From assembly GCA_963662335.2 (NCBI GenBank), contig CAXXVD010000001.1:678669-742668 (forward strand): a stretch of 64,000 bases of DNA, given 5' to 3'. Under the pieces are notes generated by a model. The model had not been told where the DNA came from. It did not search any database and saw nothing but the letters and a program-made list of their open reading frames with translations. A program made the translations under genes and the position numbers. The DNA is from Chloroflexota bacterium (GTDB taxonomy: Bacteria; Chloroflexota; UBA11872; VXOZ01). Position 1 is the stretch's first letter. Each line of letters opens with the position of its first letter. Shown piece after piece: positions 39,033-49,290 of this stretch.

Positions 39033-41507
39033 ATGAGCAACGTCCTCGGTAGGTTGAGCCAATTCGTCGTAGACCGGCCCTGGCTCACGCTCTTCATCCT
39101 GCTGAACATTACGATTTTCCTGGCCGCGGGCGCGGTGCGGCGCGCAACGCCGCTGGACACCGAGGCGATATTGCCGCCAGGGAGCGCCGTGGCCGCGGCG
39201 CTGGATGAGATCGAAGAATTCTTTGGCGACTCCGGCGACGCCAGGGTCGTAACGCTCGTCTTCCGCGGCAGCGCGCTCACGCCCGGCGGCCTGGCGCAGA
39301 TGGACGCGCTGATCAACGAAATCCTGCAGGACCCGGACGTGGCGAGTCTCTTGGCCCCGGTGGACGCGGTCATCTCGCCGGCCTTGTTCCTCAAGTCCGT
39401 GCTGCAAGTGGACAACTTCCAGGCGGTCACCCAGGCGCAGATCGACTCCACGCGCGCAATCCCGGAGATCCAGGGCGCGCTGGACGCTCTGGCGGGCGTT
39501 GACGCGGACGGCACGGAGGTCGCGATTGCCATCCTGCGCCTGCGCAACACCCGCGACGAGCGCATCGTGGACGCCGAATGGAAGATCAGCGACATTACGG
39601 CCGCAAGCGAAGGCCCGCTGCGCGCGCGCAGCCTCTCCACCGCACAGATCGAAGAAGTGTACTTGCGGGAGACAACGGAAGGGATGGGGCCGCTGGTCGG
39701 GCTGGCGTTGCTGGTCATCGCCGGCCTTACGCTGCTCTTCATGCGCACGATATCGGACCTGCTGCTCACGCTGGGCGGGCTTATCATAGCGCTGGTCTGG
39801 ATCGTCGGCACCGAGGGCTGGCTCGGCCCCCACGCGCTGGGCCTCACCGGCCCGCCGAATCAACTTACGTCGATGGTGCCTATCATCGTCATCAGCCTCA
39901 CGGTGGACTACGCCATTCAAATCGTCTCCCACTACCGCGAGCAGCGCCATACCGGCGCGCAGGTGGCGGTAGCCGCCCAAAAGGGTCTGCGCAACGTCAC
40001 CGTGCCGGTCGTTCTGGCCGGCGTTACCACCATCGTGAGCCTGTTGGTCAGCTTGTTCTCTCCCATCGGCATCGTGGGCGACTTCGGCGTCATCGCCGGG
40101 CTGGGCGTCGGCATGACCCTCATCGTGATGCTGACGCTGGTGCCGGCCGGCCGCACGCTCATCGACCGGCGGCGGGAAGCCCGGGGCACGCTGAAACAGC
40201 CCCGGCTCATCGCCACCGCCCTACCCGGCGTCGGCCGGCTGGCGGAACTCCTGGGTCGGGGCGTGACGCGCCGCCCCGCGCCGTATCTCATCGCCGTTCT
40301 CGCAATCACCGCCGCCCTGGGATTCGCGGCCAGGGGGCTCACGTCGGAGTTCCACATCCGCGACATCCTGCCCAAAGGCAGCACCGTGTTGGAAGACATG
40401 GACAGCATCGACGCGGCCACCGGCGGCTCCACGGAAATGGTCACCGTGTTGGTCAAGGCCGAGGCCACCGAGACCCGCACCCTGCTGAACATCCGGGCGC
40501 TCACGGCCGCCTTTGCGGATGAGGGCCGCCGCCCCGGCGCGGCGGCGGGTCCGATCCTGGCCTCGTACGAGTCGCTGGTGCAGGACTGGACCCACGACAG
40601 CGGGCAGCCCGGCGACAAATACGACCCGGAACTTGCCGCGCTCTATCGAGAAGCCTCCGCCGGCGTGCGGCTCGATCCCCAACTGATGCAGGAGTTGCTC
40701 GATAGGCTCCAGGCCAAGGACCCCACGTTGGCGTATCTGCTGGCTAACGACCCCAACGGCATAGACGCCGTCCTGCTGCAGTTCCCGGCCTACCAAAACG
40801 ACACGGAGGCGGCAAAGGCGCTCCAAGAGGACATCGAGGCGCTCTGGTTCGGCGACGACGACACCATCACGGCGACGTCGCCGCAGATCGTCTCGTTCAC
40901 GGTAACGGACGCGATTACGGAGCGGCAAACGGAGGCGGTGGTGACCATCATCGCGGCGGCCCTGGGCGTGCTGGCGCTCTTCTTCTGGATTACGGCGCGG
41001 CAGCCGGCGCTGGCGATCATCGCGGTGGGGCCGATCGTGCTGGCGCTCATCTCGGTGCTGGGCACCATGGCGCTGCTGGGTATTCCCTATTCGCTGGTCA
41101 CGTCCATCATCGCGGCGCTCTCGATCGGCATCGGCGTGGACTACACCATCCACATGATTCACCGCTACCGGGAAGAGTACACCCGCCTGCGCAACCCGGA
41201 GCAAGCGGCCATCCGGACGCTGGGCACCACCGGTTCGGCGCTGCTCGGCTCCGCGCTCACGACGGGCCTGGGTATCGGCACCCTGATGGCGTCGCCGCTG
41301 GCGGCGTCGCAGCACTTTGCCATCACGGCGGCCATTACGATCATCTACTCGCTGATCGCTTCCATCCTGGTGGTGCCGCCCGCGATGACCATCTGGGGCG
41401 CTTACCAGAACATGCGCCTGCGCTCCCGCGTGCGCAGTTGGGCCAGCGAACTGGACATGGAGATCGAGGAAACGCTGGCGCGCCGGCAGCAGGCGGGCAC
41501 GGCGTAG
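39033..41507 (+). CDS. MMPL/RND-family lipid transporter
   Basis: Two-repeat RND topology; SLTVDYAIQ and GIGVDYTIH motifs. Confidence 0.9.
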   Translation: MSNVLGRLSQFVVDRPWLTLFILLNITIFLAAGAVRRATPLDTEAILPPGSAVAAALDEIEEFFGDSGDARVVTLVFRGSALTPGGLAQMDALINEILQDPDVASLLAPVDAVISPALFLKSVLQVDNFQAVTQAQIDSTRAIPEIQGALDALAGVDADGTEVAIAILRLRNTRDERIVDAEWKISDITAASEGPLRARSLSTAQIEEVYLRETTEGMGPLVGLALLVIAGLTLLFMRTISDLLLTLGGLIIALVWIVGTEGWLGPHALGLTGPPNQLTSMVPIIVISLTVDYAIQIVSHYREQRHTGAQVAVAAQKGLRNVTVPVVLAGVTTIVSLLVSLFSPIGIVGDFGVIAGLGVGMTLIVMLTLVPAGRTLIDRRREARGTLKQPRLIATALPGVGRLAELLGRGVTRRPAPYLIAVLAITAALGFAARGLTSEFHIRDILPKGSTVLEDMDSIDAATGGSTEMVTVLVKAEATETRTLLNIRALTAAFADEGRRPGAAAGPILASYESLVQDWTHDSGQPGDKYDPELAALYREASAGVRLDPQLMQELLDRLQAKDPTLAYLLANDPNGIDAVLLQFPAYQNDTEAAKALQEDIEALWFGDDDTITATSPQIVSFTVTDAITERQTEAVVTIIAAALGVLALFFWITARQPALAIIAVGPIVLALISVLGTMALLGIPYSLVTSIIAALSIGIGVDYTIHMIHRYREEYTRLRNPEQAAIRTLGTTGSALLGSALTTGLGIGTLMASPLAASQHFAITAAITIIYSLIASILVVPPAMTIWGAYQNMRLRSRVRSWASELDMEIEETLARRQQAGTA

Positions 41508-41994: not shown

Positions 41995-42280
41995 AGTTCA
42001 TACTTGGACAAGCTCAACATGAACGGAGAGATGTGCGCGCGGGGTTGATAACCGCTCTCTCCACCCTTCACCCTTCGACAGGCTCAGGGCGAACGGGGGT
42101 CTTTGCGCTACGCCGTTTACCCTTCGACAGGCTCAACATGAACGGAGAAACGTGCGCGCGGGGTTGATAACCGCTCTCTCCACCGTTTGCCCTTCGACAG
42201 GCTCAGGGCGAACGGGTTCTTTGCACTACTCCGTTTGCCCTTCGACAGGCTCAGGGCGAACGGGGGTTTTTGCGCTACGC
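41995..42280. repeat. BIME-like array of five CCCTTCGACAGGCTCAGGGCGAACGG-type REPs with duplicated spacers
   Basis: Read directly; spacer GTGCGCGCGGGGTTGATAACCGCTCTCTCCACC occurs twice. Confidence 0.85.
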
Positions 42281-44752
42281 CGTGCCCTCTTCCCGCTCGC
42301 GGCGGCGGAACGTCTCCTCGATCTCTTGATCGAGTTCCTGCGCCCAATTCCGCACCCGCGAGCGCAGGCGCATGTTCTGGTACGCGCCCCACACCGTCAT
42401 CGCCGGCGGCACCACCAGCACGGAAACGACCAGCGAATAGAGGATGGTAATCGCCGCCGTGATGGCGAATTGCTGGAACATGAGTTGCGACGAGAGCACC
42501 AGCGCCCCGATGCCGATGGCCGTGGTGAGCGCGGAACCCAGCAGCGCCGAGCCCGTCACCGAGAGCGTGCGAATGGCCGCTTGTTCCGGGTCGCGCAGGC
42601 GGGCGTACTCTTCCCGGTAGCGGTGAATCATGTGAATGGTGTAGTCCACGCCGATGCCAATCGAGAGCGCCGCGATGACCGACGTGACCAGCGAGTAGGG
42701 AATGCCCAGCAGCGCCATGGTGCCCAGCACGGAAATGAGCGCGATGACGATTGGCCCCACCGCGATGATCGCCAGCGCCGGCTGCCGCGCCGTAATCCAG
42801 AAGAAGAACGCCAGCACGCTCAACGCCGCCGCGATGATGGTCACCACCGCCTCCGTCTGCCCCTCCGTGATCGCGTCCGTAATCGCGAACGTGATGATTC
42901 GTTCGGACGTCGCCGTCAGCGCCGCGTCGTCGCCGCGCCAGAGCGCTTCCACCTCCTGCTGGAGCGCCCGTGTCTGCGCCGGATCGTTGGAATAGGCCGG
43001 GAACTGGAAGAGCAGGGCGTCGCTGCCGTTGGGATTGTTGGCCAGCAGATGCGCCAACGTGGGGTCCCGCGCCTGAAGGCTGTCCAGCAACTCCTGCATC
43101 AGTTGAGCATCGAGCCGCACGCCGGCGGAGGCTTCCGCATACAGGGCGGCCATCTCCGGGTCGTACTTGTCGCCGGGCTGGCCGCTGTCGTGGGTCCAGT
43201 CGCGCAGGAGCGACTCGTAGGAGGCCAGAATGGGCCCAGACGCGGCGCCGGGGCGGCGCTGTTCATCCGCGAAAGCGGCCGTCAGGTCCCAGAAATTCAA
43301 CAGCGTGCGGGTCTCGGTGGCCTCGGCGTCCACGAGCACGCTAACGATCTCCGTCGAGCCGCCGATGGCCGCTTCGATGGTGTTCATGTCCGTTATCACG
43401 CTGCCGCCTCTGGGCAAGGCGTCGCGGATGTCGAAGTCGGACTGTACCCCCGTGGCCACCCAGCCAAGCCCAATCGTGATTGCCAGCACGGCGAGCAGGT
43501 AGGGCAAGGGGCGGCGCGCCACGCCGCGCCCCAGCAGTTCCGCCAACCGGCCGACGCCGGGCAGAGCGGCGGCGATGAGCCGGGGCTGTGTCAACGTGCC
43601 CCGGGCTTCCCGCCGCCGGTCGATGAGCGTGCGGCCGGCCGGCACCAGCGTCAGCATCACGATGAGGGTCATGCCCACGCCCAGCCCGGCGATAACGCCA
43701 AAGTCGCCCACGATCGCGATCGGGGAAAAGAGGCTCACGAAGAGGCTGACCATCGTGGTGACCGCGGCCAGCGCCAATGGCACGGTGACGTTGTTGAGGC
43801 CCTTGCGGACGGCCTCCGCCACCGGCTCGCCCGAGTGCCGCTGCTCCCGGTAGTGGGAGACGATCTGAATGGCGTAGTCCACCGTGAGGCTCATGACGAC
43901 GATGGGCACCACGGCGGTGAGCGAATTGGGCGGGCCGGTGAGGCCCAGCGCGTACGGGCCGAGCCAGCCCTCGGCGCCGATGATCCAGACCAGCGCCATG
44001 ACCAACCCCGCCAACGTGAGCAGCAGGTCCGAGAGCGTGCGCATGAAGAGCAGCGTCAACCCGGCGATGAGCAGGAGCGTGAGCGCCGACAGGATGGCCC
44101 GGCCTTCCCGCGTGGCTTGCCGGAAGGCGTCATCGATGACGATGGCCGAAACGCTGCTGGCGCGCAGCGGGCCGTCGCTGGCGAGCGCGGCCTCGTTGAT
44201 GCCGCGTTGCGCGGTCTGGAAGCGCTCGTCGCCCGTGTCGCGCAGGCGAATGATGGCGATCGCGACCTCTGTGCCGTCCGTGTCGACGCCCGTCAGCGCG
44301 GCCAGCCCCGCCTGAACCGCGGGCACGCTCCGCGCGGCGTCGATCTGCGCCTGGGTGACGCCGGCGAAGCTATCCACGCGCATTGCGGCCTTGAGCGCCA
44401 GCGTCGGCGCAACCACCGGATCGACCGGCGTGAACAGCCCGGCAATGGCCGGGTCGCTGACGATTTCGCCGAGCAGGGCGTCCATCTGCGCGAGACCCGG
44501 CGGGGTGAACGCATTGCCCCGGAAGACGACCGTGGCGACGCTGGCGTCGCCGGCGTCGCCGAAGTGTTCGTCGATTCCCGCCAGCGCCACGGCGACGGCG
44601 CTTTCTTCGGGTATGGTCGCCAGGTCGTCCGGCAGCGGCGCGCGCCGCACCGCCCCCGCGCCGAGGAAGACCGTGATGTTCAGCAGTATGAAGAGCGTGA
44701 GCCACGGGCGCTCGACGACCAACTGGCTCAACCTACCGAGTACATTGCTCAT
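42275..44752 (-). CDS. MMPL/RND-family lipid transporter (inverted paralog of 39033-41507)
   Basis: Near-identical N-terminus MSNVLGRLSQ and long shared stretches. Confidence 0.9.
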   Translation of the reverse strand: MSNVLGRLSQLVVERPWLTLFILLNITVFLGAGAVRRAPLPDDLATIPEESAVAVALAGIDEHFGDAGDASVATVVFRGNAFTPPGLAQMDALLGEIVSDPAIAGLFTPVDPVVAPTLALKAAMRVDSFAGVTQAQIDAARSVPAVQAGLAALTGVDTDGTEVAIAIIRLRDTGDERFQTAQRGINEAALASDGPLRASSVSAIVIDDAFRQATREGRAILSALTLLLIAGLTLLFMRTLSDLLLTLAGLVMALVWIIGAEGWLGPYALGLTGPPNSLTAVVPIVVMSLTVDYAIQIVSHYREQRHSGEPVAEAVRKGLNNVTVPLALAAVTTMVSLFVSLFSPIAIVGDFGVIAGLGVGMTLIVMLTLVPAGRTLIDRRREARGTLTQPRLIAAALPGVGRLAELLGRGVARRPLPYLLAVLAITIGLGWVATGVQSDFDIRDALPRGGSVITDMNTIEAAIGGSTEIVSVLVDAEATETRTLLNFWDLTAAFADEQRRPGAASGPILASYESLLRDWTHDSGQPGDKYDPEMAALYAEASAGVRLDAQLMQELLDSLQARDPTLAHLLANNPNGSDALLFQFPAYSNDPAQTRALQQEVEALWRGDDAALTATSERIITFAITDAITEGQTEAVVTIIAAALSVLAFFFWITARQPALAIIAVGPIVIALISVLGTMALLGIPYSLVTSVIAALSIGIGVDYTIHMIHRYREEYARLRDPEQAAIRTLSVTGSALLGSALTTAIGIGALVLSSQLMFQQFAITAAITILYSLVVSVLVVPPAMTVWGAYQNMRLRSRVRNWAQELDQEIEETFRRREREEGTA

Positions 44753-44986
44753 GGCGCCGTTACCAATCTGCGGATGCTGCGGGCGGCGGCGGCGCGGCCA
44801 CCCACAACGCGGCTCTACCGGGTGAAAGAGCCTGACCGCAATCGCTTGGATGACTTTCGTCGCATTGGTATGGTCTTTTACCGCTATATACTAGCGCGCA
44901 GCGCTACACATAGCCACCCCGCCGCCATTTCGTGAAGTTTCGCGCGCATGGTATAGTGTGTAGACCAATAAGAGCCGGGGTGTCAC

Positions 44987-45472
44987 GTGTATAATTTCCT
45001 CAACCGCTACTCATACGCCCTTGCAGCCGTATTCCTGGTGCTGGTGAGCGCCGTCGTCGCCTATCTCTGGCTGCCGCTGCCCGGCGGCTGGCTGCTGGCG
45101 GCGGCTCTCGGGATTGTCTTCGCGGCGGCATACGGGATTCTGCGCATTCGCACAGCCAATCCCGCGGACGTTGCCGAACTTACCGCGCTTGTCGGCGCCG
45201 GGCGGCCGGTCCTGGTCTTCTTGTACGCCAACTACTGAGTAGGTTCCCTTTCGATGCGTCCCGTGGTCGACGGGATAGAACGCGAATTTGGCGCGGATGC
45301 GCACGTAATGAGCGTCAATCTGCAAACGCCGGTGGGCCGCGGCATTGCCGCCCTGTATGACATCGAGGCCGTGCCGAGTTTCGTGGTCCTCGACGGCGCC
45401 GGCGAAGTGCGGTTCCGGGTCGATGGCCGGGTGCAGAGCCGCAAGACGCTGGTCGCCGCGCTGCGCAATTAG
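44987..45472 (+). CDS. Putative membrane-anchored thioredoxin-like selenoprotein, 161 aa, Sec84 (Y-U-V-G-S)
   Basis: ORFs 44987-45238 and 45254-45472 are in the same frame; TGA 45236-45238 sits at the CxxC position; cis-Pro AVPSF; SECIS-like hairpin follows. Confidence 0.8.
45258..45276 (+). promoter_or_regulatory. Putative bacterial SECIS apical hairpin
   Basis: GTCCCGT-GGTCG-ACGGGAT; loop starts with G 27 nt after the UGA. Confidence 0.65.
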
Positions 45473-45731
45473 AAAGGCGCGGGACACGCGCCCCGCACCG
45501 CAGCGCCGCCAGGGCCGCTGGCATAGCGCCCGCTCACGTGTCAATGTTCATTCCTCTTGGCGGCACGTACACGCCGCTGCTTTCAGGCTCTGACAGGCAA
45601 TAGGCTTCCGTGTTACTGTTACGAACTGTCAATGGGTGCGTCGACAGTAGGGTTTCGCAAACAGTTTGTGTCCGTCAATGGCGGCTGCATGATATAGTAG
45701 TGCGTGTACTCTTGGGGGAAGGTCAAACGCG

Positions 45732-46217
45732 ATGCAATTCATCAACCAGTACTCCTACGTCGTCATTTCAGTTTTCGTCCTGCTTGTCAGCGGGGCAGCC
45801 GTCTATTTTTGGCTGCCGGATCCGGGCGGCATTCTGCTGGTAGTGCTGGTAGGGGTCATCTTCGTTGCCGTAGGCGCAGCCCTGCGCTTTCCGGCGGGAG
45901 ACTCTATCAGCGATGAGGCGTTGGCGGCCCAACTCCAGAGAGGTGTGCCGACCCTGATTGTGGTCTATTCCAATTTCTGAGGGGGCAGCCTTGCGGCCCG
46001 CCCCATCGTTGATGGGATCGAACGCGACCTCGGCGCGGCAGCGCGCGTCATCCGCCTCAACCGCCATGCGCCCGTCGGCCGCGCATTCGCCGACCGCATG
46101 GGCTTACGCTTGGTGCCTGCCGTTGTTGGCTACGATAAGAAGGGCGAGGAGCGGCTGCGGATCAGCGGTGAATTGCCCAACCGCAAGGCGATCGTTGCCG
46201 CAATGCAAGAGGAGTGA
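45732..46217 (+). CDS. Putative membrane-anchored thioredoxin-like selenoprotein, 161 aa, Sec83 (F-U-G-G-S)
   Basis: Reading through TGA 45978-45980 gives GGSLAARPIVDGIERDLG...LVPAVV...MQEE-stop, collinear with the paralog. Confidence 0.8.
46002..46016 (+). promoter_or_regulatory. Putative bacterial SECIS apical hairpin
   Basis: CCCATC-GTT-GATGGG; possible lower stem TTGCG (45991-45995) / CGCGA (46023-46027). Confidence 0.65.
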
Positions 46218-48177: not shown

Positions 48178-49290
48178 CTATTGCCGCGCTTGCAGAACCG
48201 CCCGCAGGCGGTCGGCGACGACGGCCGCTTCGCCCGGTTGCAGGGTCATGGGGCTGATGAGGATGCCGTGCTCATCGAGCCGCACGTCGATCGACGGTTC
48301 GCCGGCGCGCAGGGCGCGGGCAACGGCGGCGGCGCTCGCACCGTCATCGTCGGGGAAAGAAATCTGCGCGTGGGGCACGATGTCCCAACTGGCGCCGTCG
48401 TCTTTGCGCCGCACCGCGCCGGACACACCGTCAATGCCGTCCGCGGCCGCCGCTATCGTGCGCATCTGCGCTTCCCAATCCGCGAGTTCCGCGGCCTCGT
48501 CCTGCGCCAGGTAGAGTTCGACCGCCGTCAGCAGGCCCATGATTTCTTCCTTGCCCACTTTCATGCCGCGGCCGACCGCGCTCTGGGGACTGCCGTTCAG
48601 GCGCGCCGCTTCCACGAGCGCGGGCGTGCCGAGCACCAGGCCGGTGGCTTGCGGGCCGCGAATGCCCTTGCCGCCGCTGAAGATGACGAGGTCAGCCCCG
48701 AGACCCACGATTTCCGAAAGATTGGAGCGGGGCGGGAGTTGCGCGGCGGCGTCGACGATCACCGGCACGCCGCGTTCGTGCGCCCCGGCGATCACCTCGC
48801 TCAATTGCTGTTTGGATTGCTTGCCGAGGAAGTGCACCACCGCCGCCGTGCGCTCGGTGATCGCGCCAATCAGTTCCTCTGACGTCACGCCCGCGCTCGT
48901 GCCGGCGGCCACCAGCACGCCGCCAACGACCCGGAAGCCCTGGTGAACGTACGTGTGCTCGTCCACGTAGCTAATCACAAACTCATTCTTGCCGCTCGGC
49001 ACTTCCGGTATTGCGCGGATCAGGTCCGTGTCCGTGCCGGTCAAGCAGGCCGCGGCCGCCACCAGCATACCGCTGGCAGCCCCGCACGGGATGAACGCGG
49101 CCGGCACGCCAATCTTCTCCGCCAGCCACGCGCCCGCCTTCTCGTGCAGTTCGTCAAGGCCGATGAAACTGTTGGCAGCCTGCGCCATGGCCGCCACCAC
49201 CGGCTCCGGCATCAGGCTGCCGCCCAGCGTCGTCACCGTGCCGCTGGCGTTGATGAACGTGTCAACGTTTACGTCATCGTACTTAATCAT
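48178..49290 (-). CDS. SelA-like/DgaE-family PLP-dependent enzyme (probably not true SelA)
   Basis: INASGTVTTLGGS, VDAAAQLPP, FSGGKGIRGPQ, GRGMKVGKEE. Confidence 0.85.
   Translation of the reverse strand: MIKYDDVNVDTFINASGTVTTLGGSLMPEPVVAAMAQAANSFIGLDELHEKAGAWLAEKIGVPAAFIPCGAASGMLVAAAACLTGTDTDLIRAIPEVPSGKNEFVISYVDEHTYVHQGFRVVGGVLVAAGTSAGVTSEELIGAITERTAAVVHFLGKQSKQQLSEVIAGAHERGVPVIVDAAAQLPPRSNLSEIVGLGADLVIFSGGKGIRGPQATGLVLGTPALVEAARLNGSPQSAVGRGMKVGKEEIMGLLTAVELYLAQDEAAELADWEAQMRTIAAAADGIDGVSGAVRRKDDGASWDIVPHAQISFPDDDGASAAAVARALRAGEPSIDVRLDEHGILISPMTLQPGEAAVVADRLRAVLQARQ

What the first reader, a model, noticed from the sequence alone, without database searches (positions are those of the whole stretch)
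44987..46217. Two tandem hidden selenoproteins: membrane-anchored thioredoxin folds with an unusual UxxS active site
Seen: the ORF caller breaks both genes at a TGA, but in each the frame continues to a 161-aa protein. Paralog 1 reads ...PVLVFLYANY-TGA-VGSLSMRPVVDGIEREFG...AVPSFVVLD; paralog 2 reads ...PTLIVVYSNF-TGA-GGSLAARPIVDGIERDLG...LVPAVVGYD. The TGA is at the same aligned position in two otherwise diverged paralogs. Known: this is where the nucleophilic Cys of the thioredoxin CxxC motif lies (after beta-strand 'VLVxF', before the helix, with a downstream cis-Pro 'VP'), and bacteria decode UGA as Sec when a SECIS follows. Inference: both are selenoproteins with two N-terminal TM helices and no resolving Cys (UxxS), implying a mono-selenol redox role at the membrane. 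Two independent nonsense mutations at the catalytic codon are implausible.
Basis: partly seen in the sequence, partly recalled or inferred. Interest (0 to 1): 0.92.

Follow-up and report, generated by a model that had tools for sequence, protein, structure and literature searches.

The report
Two hidden membrane-anchored thioredoxin-like selenoproteins
Two neighbouring genes that gene callers cut in half at a TGA are almost certainly whole, selenocysteine-containing, membrane-anchored thioredoxin-like proteins of a Chloroflexota family that current catalogues do not list, and in this genome both copies have lost the usual second active-site cysteine.

Summary
Both genes (44987-45472 and 45732-46217, + strand) read through one in-frame TGA to 161-aa proteins. 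Each has two N-terminal TM helices and a thioredoxin fold, with the TGA at the nucleophile position of CxxC.

- The genome has selA, selB, a Sec-containing selD and tRNA-Sec(UCA), and it uses TGA as an ordinary stop.
- All 16 congeneric genomes searched carry homologues with a TGA in the same column. Across the phylum, 53 of 64 extracted full-length members have TGA and 11 have Cys there.
- A 6-8 bp hairpin with a G-U-N loop lies on the codons P-x-V-D-G, 21 nt after the TGA. It is paired in 85.7% of cells in 49 Sec forms, with synonymous-site covariation, against 42% (chance level) in 11 Cys forms.
- A scan of one genome per species for that peptide motif found TGA 8 codons upstream of its Pro codon in 77 of 77 occurrences.

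UxxS is derived, not ancestral: the family norm is UxxC/CxxC, and the second Cys was lost at least 3 times. Neither window protein contains any Cys, so Sec is the only redox residue. Biochemical role, membrane topology and selenium content remain untested. I rate this a new variant of a known kind.

The parts
44987..45472 (+). Gene 1 (P1): 161-aa selenoprotein with a UVGS motif; GTG start, TAG stop
   Evidence: Read-through translation. Orthologues with TGA in the same column. On record only as separate 83-aa and 72-aa gene calls.
45236..45238 (+). Sec codon of P1 (UGA, residue 84)
   Evidence: Aligned with Cys of the CxxC forms and with TGA of 52 other Sec forms. Lies at the N-cap of helix 85-101 in the model.
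45258..45276 (+). SECIS hairpin of P1. Core CCCGU-GGUCG-ACGGG at 45260-45274, on codons P-V-V-D-G
   Evidence: Alignment columns 23-41 of A2. Has the G:C form of the covarying pair 28-36. The closing pair is a G-G mismatch, so the loop is 5 nt.
44990..45154 (+). TM helical hairpin of P1 (residues 2-28 and 33-56)
   Evidence: AF2 helices H2-28 and H33-56. Stretch 8-52 has no charged residue.
45170..45466 (+). Thioredoxin-fold domain of P1 (residues 62-160), invariant cis-Pro candidate P130
   Evidence: AF2 secondary-structure order helix-strand-helix-strand-helix-strand-strand-helix. Foldseek top hits are thioredoxins, TM-score normalised to the target 0.73-0.84, rmsd 1.5-2.0. PDB profile search gives thioredoxin y1 at E 8e-11.
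45732..46217 (+). Gene 2 (P2): 161-aa selenoprotein with a UGGS motif; ATG start, terminal TGA 46215-46217 acts as the stop
   Evidence: Its sister in the tree is a UAGC orthologue of genome G011, support 100/99.
45978..45980 (+). Sec codon of P2 (UGA, residue 83)
   Evidence: Unchanged in contigs of 3 runs.
46000..46018 (+). SECIS hairpin of P2. Core CCCAUC-GUU-GAUGGG at 46002-46016, on codons P-I-V-D-G
   Evidence: Also recovered by my genome-wide scan for TGA followed by a hairpin with a GUN triloop, together with selD and a SelW-like gene.
45732..45896 (+). TM helical hairpin of P2 (about residues 1-55, placed by alignment to P1)
   Evidence: Gap-free alignment to P1. Stretch 1-51 has no charged residue. 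No separate model was made.
44865..44892 (+). Promoter-like site upstream of P1 (consensus match only)
   Evidence: 1 site found against 0.4 expected from shuffles. Not evidence of function.

Best explanation
Both genes encode full-length selenoproteins. The in-frame UGA is decoded as selenocysteine by SelB and tRNA-Sec, directed by a short G+C-rich hairpin with a G-U-N apical loop. The hairpin starts about 21 nt after the UGA and is written into the codons Pro-x-Val-Asp-Gly.

Each protein is held in the membrane by an N-terminal hairpin of two helices and carries a minimal thioredoxin fold. Sec sits where thioredoxins have their attacking Cys.

The family, spread through Chloroflexota, normally has U/CxxC. 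In this genome both copies are UxxS and contain no Cys at all.

Inferred mechanism: the selenolate attacks a disulfide or an oxidant, giving a mixed selenenylsulfide or a selenenic acid. With no internal resolving Cys, an outside thiol (a partner protein or a small thiol) must resolve it. This is a mono-selenol cycle of the kind used by monothiol glutaredoxins, CxxS oxidoreductases and glutathione peroxidases.

Shown: gene structure, fold, Sec/Cys column, SECIS, decoding machinery. Inferred: Sec insertion itself, the chemistry, the partners.
For: Decoding machinery in the same genome:
- selB 381 bits, selA 562 bits, selD 380 bits with its own in-frame TGA, tRNA-Sec 67.8 bits with anticodon TCA.

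Conservation of the TGA:
- The 28 best rows of the search of 61 relatives all have exactly 1 TGA. They cover 16 of 16 congeneric genomes plus G017.
- Of 64 full-length members extracted from the phylum scan, 36 are UxxC, 17 UxxS and 11 CxxC. The TGA and the Cys codon fall in one column.

SECIS hairpin:
- In 49 distinct Sec forms, 85.7% of cells are paired, reached by 0 of 500 shuffles. Pair 28-36 is AU in 36, GC in 12 and other in 1. That pair links base 1 of the Ile/Val codon to the synonymous base 3 of the Asp codon.
- In 11 Cys forms, 42.0% of cells are paired, reached by 433 of 500 shuffles.
- The peptide pattern A[RNK]P[ITM]VDG[IV]E, scanned over one genome per species, hit 69 confirmed loci. 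TGA lay 8 codons before the Pro codon in 77 of 77 occurrences.
- selD and a SelW-like gene of this genome have the same kind of hairpin with a GUN triloop.

Coding and fold:
- Median dN/dS over 132 congeneric pairs is 0.31 before the TGA (codons 1-55) and 0.41 after it.
- AF2 mean pLDDT is 78, with Sec84 at the N-cap of helix 85-101. Foldseek returns thioredoxins.
- TGA closes 588 of 1550 long open frames, so it is a normal stop in this genome.
- P1 and P2 contain no Cys.
Against: - No direct evidence of selenium or of the full-length protein. No RNA run holds the stretch.
- Pfam Thioredoxin scores 22.6 bits for P1, just under the 23.5 cut-off. P2 does not list PF00085 at all.
- P1 looks less constrained. 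It has a long terminal branch of 0.64, Ala in place of the nearly invariant Ser81, and a G-G mismatch closing its hairpin loop.
- The family evolves fast. P1 is 39-52% identical to congeneric homologues, while the neighbouring epimerase is 86-93% identical.
- CxxS forms exist: 3 of the 150 best representatives. Losing the second Cys therefore does not require Sec.
- Topology is ambiguous.
- No conserved neighbour gene points to a partner.
Confidence: 0.85

Rival explanations
1. The genes are Sec-decoded, but the UxxS copies, P1 above all, are relaxed, decaying or neofunctionalised duplicates. On this view their redox function is being lost rather than being a working mono-selenol mechanism.
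For: - P1 has a long terminal branch of 0.64.
- P1 has Ala for the nearly invariant Ser81 and a weaker hairpin.
- Copies come and go within the genus. Fragments or multi-stop remnants occur in G003, G005 and G007, and one UxxS copy in G002 loses the frame after about 110 residues.
- Four genomes show only a single UxxC copy.
- dN/dS of 0.3-0.5 indicates only moderate constraint.
Against: - Both frames are intact and both hairpins are kept. P1 keeps pair 28-36 in its compensated G:C form.
- One UxxS clade of 11 sequences from 11 congeneric genomes persists with a conserved domain.
- UxxS also persists in three genomes of another family, f50.
- dN/dS is below 1 on both sides of the TGA.
Confidence: 0.08
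2. The UGA is read through, but as another amino acid rather than selenocysteine. This could be Trp, Cys or Gly, through near-cognate decoding or a changed genetic code.
For: 13 of the 150 best database representatives carry W at this column.
Against: - An 88%-identical relative of one such W form has TGA at that column, so the W is probably a code 4/25 gene call.
- TGA closes 588 of 1550 long open frames here, and P2 itself ends in TGA.
- The hairpin occurs only with TGA, never in the 11 Cys forms.
- The complete Sec machinery is present.
- The column is the catalytic Cys in 11 of 11 extracted forms without TGA.
Confidence: 0.03
3. The TGAs are true stops. The loci would then be pseudogenes, or pairs of separately translated small genes: a TM peptide plus a C-terminal fragment.
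For: Public gene calls list the halves separately. The 83-aa and 72-aa calls of P1 are on record, and the clusters of relatives' halves (82 aa and 74 aa) have 12 and 16 members.
Against: - The TGA is in the same column in 53 of 53 extracted TGA-bearing members, at 25-65% identity to P2.
- Sequence is conserved and dN/dS is below 1 directly after the TGA.
- In P2 the next in-frame start codon of that frame in the ORF list is ATG 46098. It would leave 39 conserved codons, the whole active-site helix, untranslated.
- A half thioredoxin fold without strand 1 and the active site is not a plausible protein.
Confidence: 0.02

Closest known systems
Thioredoxin selenoproteins (PF00085, UxxC), listed as experimentally verified in the 2026 inventory of prokaryotic selenoproteins (PMC13188914, Table 1)
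   Same: Thioredoxin fold. Sec replaces the N-terminal Cys of CxxC. SECIS lies directly after the UGA. Cys-containing homologues exist.
   Different: These proteins have an N-terminal two-helix membrane anchor and a conserved N-terminal N-[QR]-Y-S-[YF] motif. In this genome the motif is UxxS and there is no Cys. Scores against NCBIfam thioredoxin models are far below cut-off, 17-49 bits against 96.8.
UxxS selenoproteins already catalogued: arsenate reductase ArsC, rhodanese-like form 1, Prx-like cd02970 (PMC13188914 Table 1; PMC2398784; PMC1088965)
   Same: The same Sec-x-x-Ser redox motif, which implies a one-selenol mechanism.
   Different: Different families or folds. None of their models matched P1 or P2. 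In the part of Table 1 that I read, PF00085 is listed only with UxxC.
Membrane-anchored thioredoxin-like thiol:disulfide oxidoreductases (TlpA, ResA, CcmG/DsbE, cyanobacterial slr1796-type). Named from recall and from weak NCBIfam hits.
   Same: A thioredoxin domain tethered to the membrane. There are weak matches to thylak_slr1796 (E 6.6e-4 to 1.2e-5), DsbE and TlpA models. Some family members have one TM helix with an Arg-rich N-tail, like signal-anchored extracytoplasmic reductases.
   Different: All those matches are far below cut-off. Most members have two TM helices. No cytochrome-maturation or DsbD/CcdA neighbour was seen in the 1.5-kb flanks examined.
Glutathione peroxidase-like selenoproteins (UxxT)
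   Same: Thioredoxin-superfamily fold with a lone Sec followed by a hydroxyl residue at +3. This suggests a possible selenenic-acid cycle.
   Different: No match to PF00255. The Gln/Trp/Asn partners of the GPx active site (recalled) were not looked for in the model. The closest structures are true thioredoxins.

Membership tests
Bacterial selenoprotein (UGA decoded as Sec) | In-frame UGA aligned with Cys in homologues | tested here: met
   53 TGA forms and 11 Cys forms share one column among 64 members. 80 single-domain CxxC forms occur among the 150 best representatives.
Bacterial selenoprotein (UGA decoded as Sec) | Stem-loop directly downstream of the UGA, with a small apical loop containing G (feature as stated in PMC1088965, passages read) | tested here: met
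   G31 and T32 are invariant in the loop. 85.7% of cells are paired, reached by 0 of 500 shuffles, with covariation at pair 28-36. The hairpin is absent from Cys forms.
Bacterial selenoprotein (UGA decoded as Sec) | selA, selB, selC and selD present in the genome | tested here: met
   all above the curated cut-offs. ARAGORN finds tRNA-SeC with anticodon tca.
Bacterial selenoprotein (UGA decoded as Sec) | Coding conservation continues in frame past the UGA | tested here: met
   Median dN/dS after the TGA is 0.41 over 132 pairs. Invariant residues P92, V94, D95, G96, G102, G117, P130 and R144 lie downstream.
Bacterial selenoprotein (UGA decoded as Sec) | Selenium present in the protein | not testable with these tools
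   Needs 75Se labelling or mass spectrometry.
Thioredoxin fold / Pfam PF00085 | Strand-helix-strand-helix-strand-strand-helix fold, with the active site at the N-cap of helix 1 and a cis-Pro before strand 3 | tested here: met
   AF2 model. Foldseek TM-score normalised to the target is 0.73-0.84 against thioredoxins. P130 is invariant.
Thioredoxin fold / Pfam PF00085 | Score above the Pfam gathering cut-off of 23.5 bits | tested here: not met
   P1 scores 22.6 bits and P2 does not list PF00085. Five Cys-form relatives and one WxxC form pass, at 24.9-48.1 bits.
Thioredoxin (dithiol mechanism) | Second, resolving Cys at position +3 (CxxC or UxxC) | tested here: not met
   Ser at +3 in both proteins, and no Cys anywhere in either.
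UGSC-containing, SaoT, HUIPC, VPGUxxT and other curated thioredoxin-like selenoprotein families of NCBIfam 20.0 | Match to the family's curated model | tested here: not met
   None of these appears at E <= 0.01 for P1, P2 or five Cys/CxxS forms, or at E <= 0.001 for six other members.
Glutathione peroxidase | Match to PF00255 and the catalytic Gln/Trp/Asn residues | tested here: not met
   No PF00255 hit at E <= 1. The catalytic residues were not examined.
TlpA/ResA/DsbE extracytoplasmic reductases | Extracytoplasmic thioredoxin domain behind a signal anchor | tested here: inconclusive
   Positive-inside counts conflict. Members of this genus have 1-3 Arg (most have 2) just after TM2, which suggests a cytoplasmic domain. 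One-TM members and members with Lys/Arg-rich loops suggest an outside domain.

The most novel reading that the evidence does not exclude
Selenocysteine has made the resolving cysteine dispensable in this family. The second Cys was lost at least three separate times in Sec-bearing lineages. This genome is the one sampled case where the whole family complement (both copies) consists of cysteine-free, one-selenol thioredoxins tethered to the membrane. They would then work by a cycle that ordinary thioredoxins do not use. One form is a mixed Se-S bond with the substrate, resolved by an outside thiol. The other is a GPx-like selenenic-acid cycle acting on oxidants at the membrane surface. The tandem pair may act together.
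Probability: 0.3. Interest if true: 0.7.

Novelty: new variant of a known kind. Interest (0 to 1): 0.55.

Why it matters
1. Annotation. A family present in many Chloroflexota genomes is systematically cut into two nameless fragments in public gene calls, so selenoproteomes of this phylum are undercounted.

2. A detection rule. The SECIS is written into a conserved peptide (P-x-V-D-G). The peptide motif alone predicted a TGA 8 codons before its Pro codon in 77 of 77 cases. This shows how an RNA signal constrains protein sequence, and it gives a cheap way to find members.

3. A natural experiment. Within one genus there are UxxC and UxxS forms, with CxxC and CxxS forms elsewhere in the family. 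There were at least 3 independent losses of the second Cys and frequent Sec/Cys exchange. That series bears on the old question of what Sec offers over Cys, and it can be tested with simple mutants.

Tried and rejected
Leads that gave nothing useful:
- Folding 65 nt after each TGA on its own gave z-scores of 0.19 and 0.23, no better than shuffles. Only the comparative analysis revealed the hairpin.
- The search for homologous proteins with P1 at near length found nothing. This fits split gene calls and is not evidence of absence.
- Neighbours. The divergent MMPL gene was matched only in G011's locus (the 1.5-kb flanks would reach it in few others), and the downstream NAD-epimerase is conserved only within the genus. 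No flanking gene is shared across the phylum. A weak SelA-like PLP enzyme lies 2 kb away, and I do not link it to the finding.
- Topology from Lys+Arg counts came out conflicting.
- The idea that UxxS occurs only with Sec is rejected as a rule. Three CxxS representatives exist, although 0 of 64 extracted genome members are CxxS.
- No RNA holder was listed for the stretch, so expression could not be examined.
- My genome-wide scan for TGA plus hairpin gave 18 candidates. I judge only selD, P2 and a SelW-like gene credible, because the rest translate to Arg/Pro-rich off-frame sequence. P1 was missed because its loop is 5 nt.
- ESM Atlas with a natural Cys form returned only 'hypothetical' and 'TlpA family' clusters from Chloroflexota. 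These are leads only.
- Literature. Searches for 'UxxS', selenoprotein + Chloroflexi + thioredoxin-like, selenoproteome + Chloroflexota/Anaerolineae and 'membrane-anchored thioredoxin' + selenocysteine found no description of this family.
- What I read of each paper: for PMC13188914, passages and part 1 of 3 of section 7; for PMC2398784, PMC1088965 and PMC9312934, passages only; all others as search listings. Supplements are closed. The GOS 'Trx-like 3' family (cd02950, UxxC; PMC2398784) or other catalogued Trx-like sets could include relatives, and I could not check.
Full report
**What is there**

Window 44987-46217 holds two + strand genes that table-11 ORF calling cuts at a TGA (sequence).
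- Read with TGA=U, gene 1 (44987-45472) gives 161 aa with U84 in LYANY-U-VGS.
- Gene 2 (45732-46217) gives 161 aa with U83 in VYSNF-U-GGS. It ends at a second TGA that acts as its stop.
- The two proteins are 42% identical over 159 residues without a gap, so the TGAs are in the same column.
- Contigs of three runs from one study span the stretch with three differences, none in a TGA. One changes Phe82 of gene 2 to Tyr, a state common in the family.

**Is the genome able to decode Sec?**

Yes.
- selB scores 381 bits, selA 562 bits and selD 380 bits. selD has its own in-frame TGA at the canonical site. tRNA-Sec scores 67.8 bits. All are above the curated cut-offs.
- ARAGORN calls the tRNA as SeC with anticodon tca.
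- TGA is not reassigned. It closes 588 of 1550 open frames of at least 400 codons.

**Relatives**

- Search of 61 related genomes with P1: the 28 best rows (74.9-330.5 bits, 34-99% identity) each had exactly one TGA. They cover all 16 genomes of the same genus and one genome of another family. Weaker rows (24-33% identity) without stops are generic thioredoxin-like proteins.
- Profile of 27 members (A1) over 401 genomes of the phylum: this found full-length matches both with one TGA and with none.
- Extraction: I pulled 64 full-length members from the loci, leaving out five fragments and the locus of an unpublished genome. They are 36 UxxC, 17 UxxS, 11 CxxC and 0 CxxS. The TGA and the first Cys codon share one column.
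- Names attached to database copies place the family in Chloroflexota. Cys forms are called 'thioredoxin family protein'. Sec forms exist only as nameless 82/83-aa and 72/74-aa halves, including the window's own halves.
- The exhaustive representative search gave 287 proteins at E <= 1e-10. Of the 150 best, all aligned to the A1 profile:
  - 80 are single-domain CxxC.
  - 29 are long multidomain proteins (28 CxxC, 1 ExxC).
  - 13 are WxxC, 4 SxxC, 3 CxxS and 1 SxxS.
  - 20 are halves that end at, or begin after, the column.
- For one W form, an 88%-identical metagenomic relative has TGA at that codon. I therefore read the W forms as gene calls made under code 4/25. This is an inference for the other twelve.

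**The SECIS**

- Single-sequence folding was uninformative.
- Stacking 60 nt from the TGA of 49 distinct Sec forms showed a hairpin on the codons Pro-x-Val-Asp-Gly, at alignment columns 23-30 and 34-41, with the loop G31-U32-N33 invariant in its first two bases.
- For that structure, 85.7% of cells are standard pairs, reached by 0 of 500 shuffles. Slid controls give 28-51%.
- Pair 28-36 is A:U in 36, G:C in 12 and unpaired in 1. Column 28 is the first base of an Ile or Val codon, and column 36 is the synonymous third base of Asp. The covariation therefore cannot be a protein-level effect.
- One member replaces CCC/GGG by GCG/CGC.
- The same structure on the 11 Cys forms pairs 42.0% of cells, reached by 433 of 500 shuffles. 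Most Cys forms also lack the Gly after Asp.
- Independent check: the peptide pattern A[RNK]P[ITM]VDG[IV]E was scanned over one genome for each of 185,579 species and hit 69 confirmed loci. In all 77 occurrences a TGA lies 8 codons before the Pro codon: 67 UxxC and 10 UxxS. Most records are labelled Chloroflexota or Anaerolineae. A few MAGs carry other labels.
- Within this genome, selD (CGCGCAG-GUG-CUGCGCG) and a SelW-like gene (CCGUCA-GUU-UGACGG) have the same kind of hairpin with a GUN loop, 25-36 nt from the UGA.
- P1's own hairpin is CCCGU-GGUCG-ACGGG (45260-45274) and P2's is CCCAUC-GUU-GAUGGG (46002-46016).

**Coding on both sides of the TGA**

- Nei-Gojobori estimates over 132 congeneric pairs (non-independent) give median dN/dS of 0.31 for codons 1-55 and 0.41 for the part after the TGA.
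- In P2, the next start-codon ORF listed in that frame begins at ATG 46098. Separate translation would skip the conserved active-site helix.

**Structure**

- The AF2 model of P1, built with alignment A1, has mean pLDDT 78 and 84-91 across the domain (10-residue blocks from residue 71; the 61-70 block, helix 62-70, is 72).
- It shows helices 2-28 and 33-56 (the TM hairpin) and helix 62-70.
- Then come strand 75-80, Sec84 at the N-cap of helix 85-101, strand 106-111, helix 115-123, invariant Pro130, strands 131-135 and 141-146, and helix 152-160.
- Foldseek against the PDB returns thioredoxins (TM-score normalised to the target 0.73-0.84, rmsd 1.5-2.0 Å). The profile search of PDB sequences gives chloroplast thioredoxin y1 and m (E 8e-11 and 1.4e-10).
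- Pfam and NCBIfam give only weak generic thioredoxin matches. No dedicated selenoprotein model matches, for P1, P2 or eleven other members.

**UxxS is derived**

- In the maximum-likelihood tree of the 64 members, the genus forms one clade (100/100).
- That clade contains a UxxC clade of 11, a UxxS clade of 11, P1 with its UTVS partner from G011 (88/59), and P2 as sister to a UAGC gene of G011 (100/99).
- The UxxS label needs 4 changes on the tree, at least 3 of them forced by well-supported branches. One is in another family, f50. The CxxC label needs 7, at least 6 forced.
- Copy content varies within the genus:
  - Eight genomes have an intact UxxS plus UxxC pair.
  - Three have UxxS plus remnants.
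  - One has UxxC plus a UxxS copy that loses the frame.
  - Four have a single UxxC copy.
  - This genome alone has two UxxS copies.
- Neither window protein has any Cys.
- The family evolves fast. P1 is 39-52% identical to congeneric homologues, while the adjacent epimerase is 86-93% identical.

**How it most likely works**

Shown: the gene structure, the fold, the catalytic column, the Sec-specific hairpin and the decoding machinery.

Inferred:
- SelB binds the GUN hairpin and inserts Sec.
- The selenolate at the N-cap of helix 1 attacks a disulfide or an oxidant.
- With no internal thiol, the resulting Se-S or Se-OH intermediate is resolved by an external thiol.

Which side of the membrane the domain faces is open. 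Members of this genus have 1-3 Arg (most have 2) right after TM2 and uncharged loops, which points to the inside. One-TM members with Arg-rich N-tails and members with Lys/Arg-rich loops point to the outside. No conserved neighbour suggests a partner.

**Comparison with what is known**

- The 2026 inventory of 119 prokaryotic selenoprotein families lists thioredoxin (PF00085) with UxxC only.
- It lists UxxS for ArsC, a rhodanese form and a Prx-like family. This is from Table 1 as far as I read it: section 7 part 1 and passages.
- The older Sargasso and GOS papers agree (passages).
- My four searches found no description of a two-TM thioredoxin selenoprotein in Chloroflexota. Supplements were closed, so an unnamed 'Trx-like' entry there could overlap.
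- I therefore file this as a thioredoxin-like selenoprotein of an uncatalogued membrane-anchored subfamily with a new motif state: a new variant of a known kind.

**Limits**

- There is no protein or selenium evidence, and no RNA run was listed.

Noticed in passing
G000:C2:377697 (+), outside the window: Candidate SelW-like selenoprotein...SIEYCTS-U-GYLPK... (CxxU motif), with a CCGUCA-GUU-UGACGG hairpin 19 nt after the TGA. Found by my TGA-plus-hairpin scan. The family name is recalled from the motif and was not tested against a model.
   Followed up: partly
G000:C1:383026 (+), outside the window: selD itself is a selenoprotein (AACAG-U-AGKLGP). Its SECIS is CGCGCAG-GUG-CUGCGCG, 26 nt after the TGA.
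   Followed up: yes
window 48178-49290 (-): 370-aa ORF with a weak SelA-family Pfam match (31.3 bits), 2 kb from the selenoprotein pair. The true selA is elsewhere, at C2:609257-610606. Probably a related PLP enzyme. Any link to selenium is unknown.
   Followed up: no
window 39033-41507 (+) and 42275-44752 (-): Two paralogous MMPL/RND-type transporters of 824 and 825 aa. The second is transcribed divergently from selenoprotein gene 1. Only G011's locus matched this MMPL gene (63% identity over 116 aa); the 1.5-kb flanks fetched would reach it in few other genomes, so its conservation was not tested.
   Followed up: partly
L027 (G011) compared with window 44987-46217: Gene order differs between close relatives. 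G011 has [UAGC copy][UTVS copy][epimerase]. This genome has [P1, kin of the UTVS copy][P2, kin of the UAGC copy][epimerase]. This suggests rearrangement or gene conversion within the pair.
   Followed up: partly
L032:2253-2555 (G003); G005:C1:2075726-2075842 and G007:C1:541952-542068; L041:2277-2738 (G002): Decayed extra copies of the family in congeneric genomes. One has two TGAs, two are 79-aa remnants, and one loses similarity after about residue 110. The pattern is birth-and-death turnover of these genes.
   Followed up: partly
L073, L074, L085 (family f12 genomes): Further homologous ORFs, without Pfam hits, lie in tandem just upstream of the family member in several Anaerolineae-type genomes. 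Tandem arrays are therefore not peculiar to this genus.
   Followed up: no
window 45476-45499: G+C-rich inverted repeat directly after the stop of gene 1. The scan reports it only as a minus-strand terminator-like site. It may separate the transcripts of the two genes.
   Followed up: no
family alignments A1 and A4, residues 5-9 of P1: An N-terminal motif N-[QR]-Y-S-[YF] before TM1 is conserved across the phylum. Y8 and S9 are invariant in A1, and S8 in A4. Its role is unknown. If the two TM helices form a hairpin, it lies on the same side of the membrane as the thioredoxin domain.
   Followed up: no
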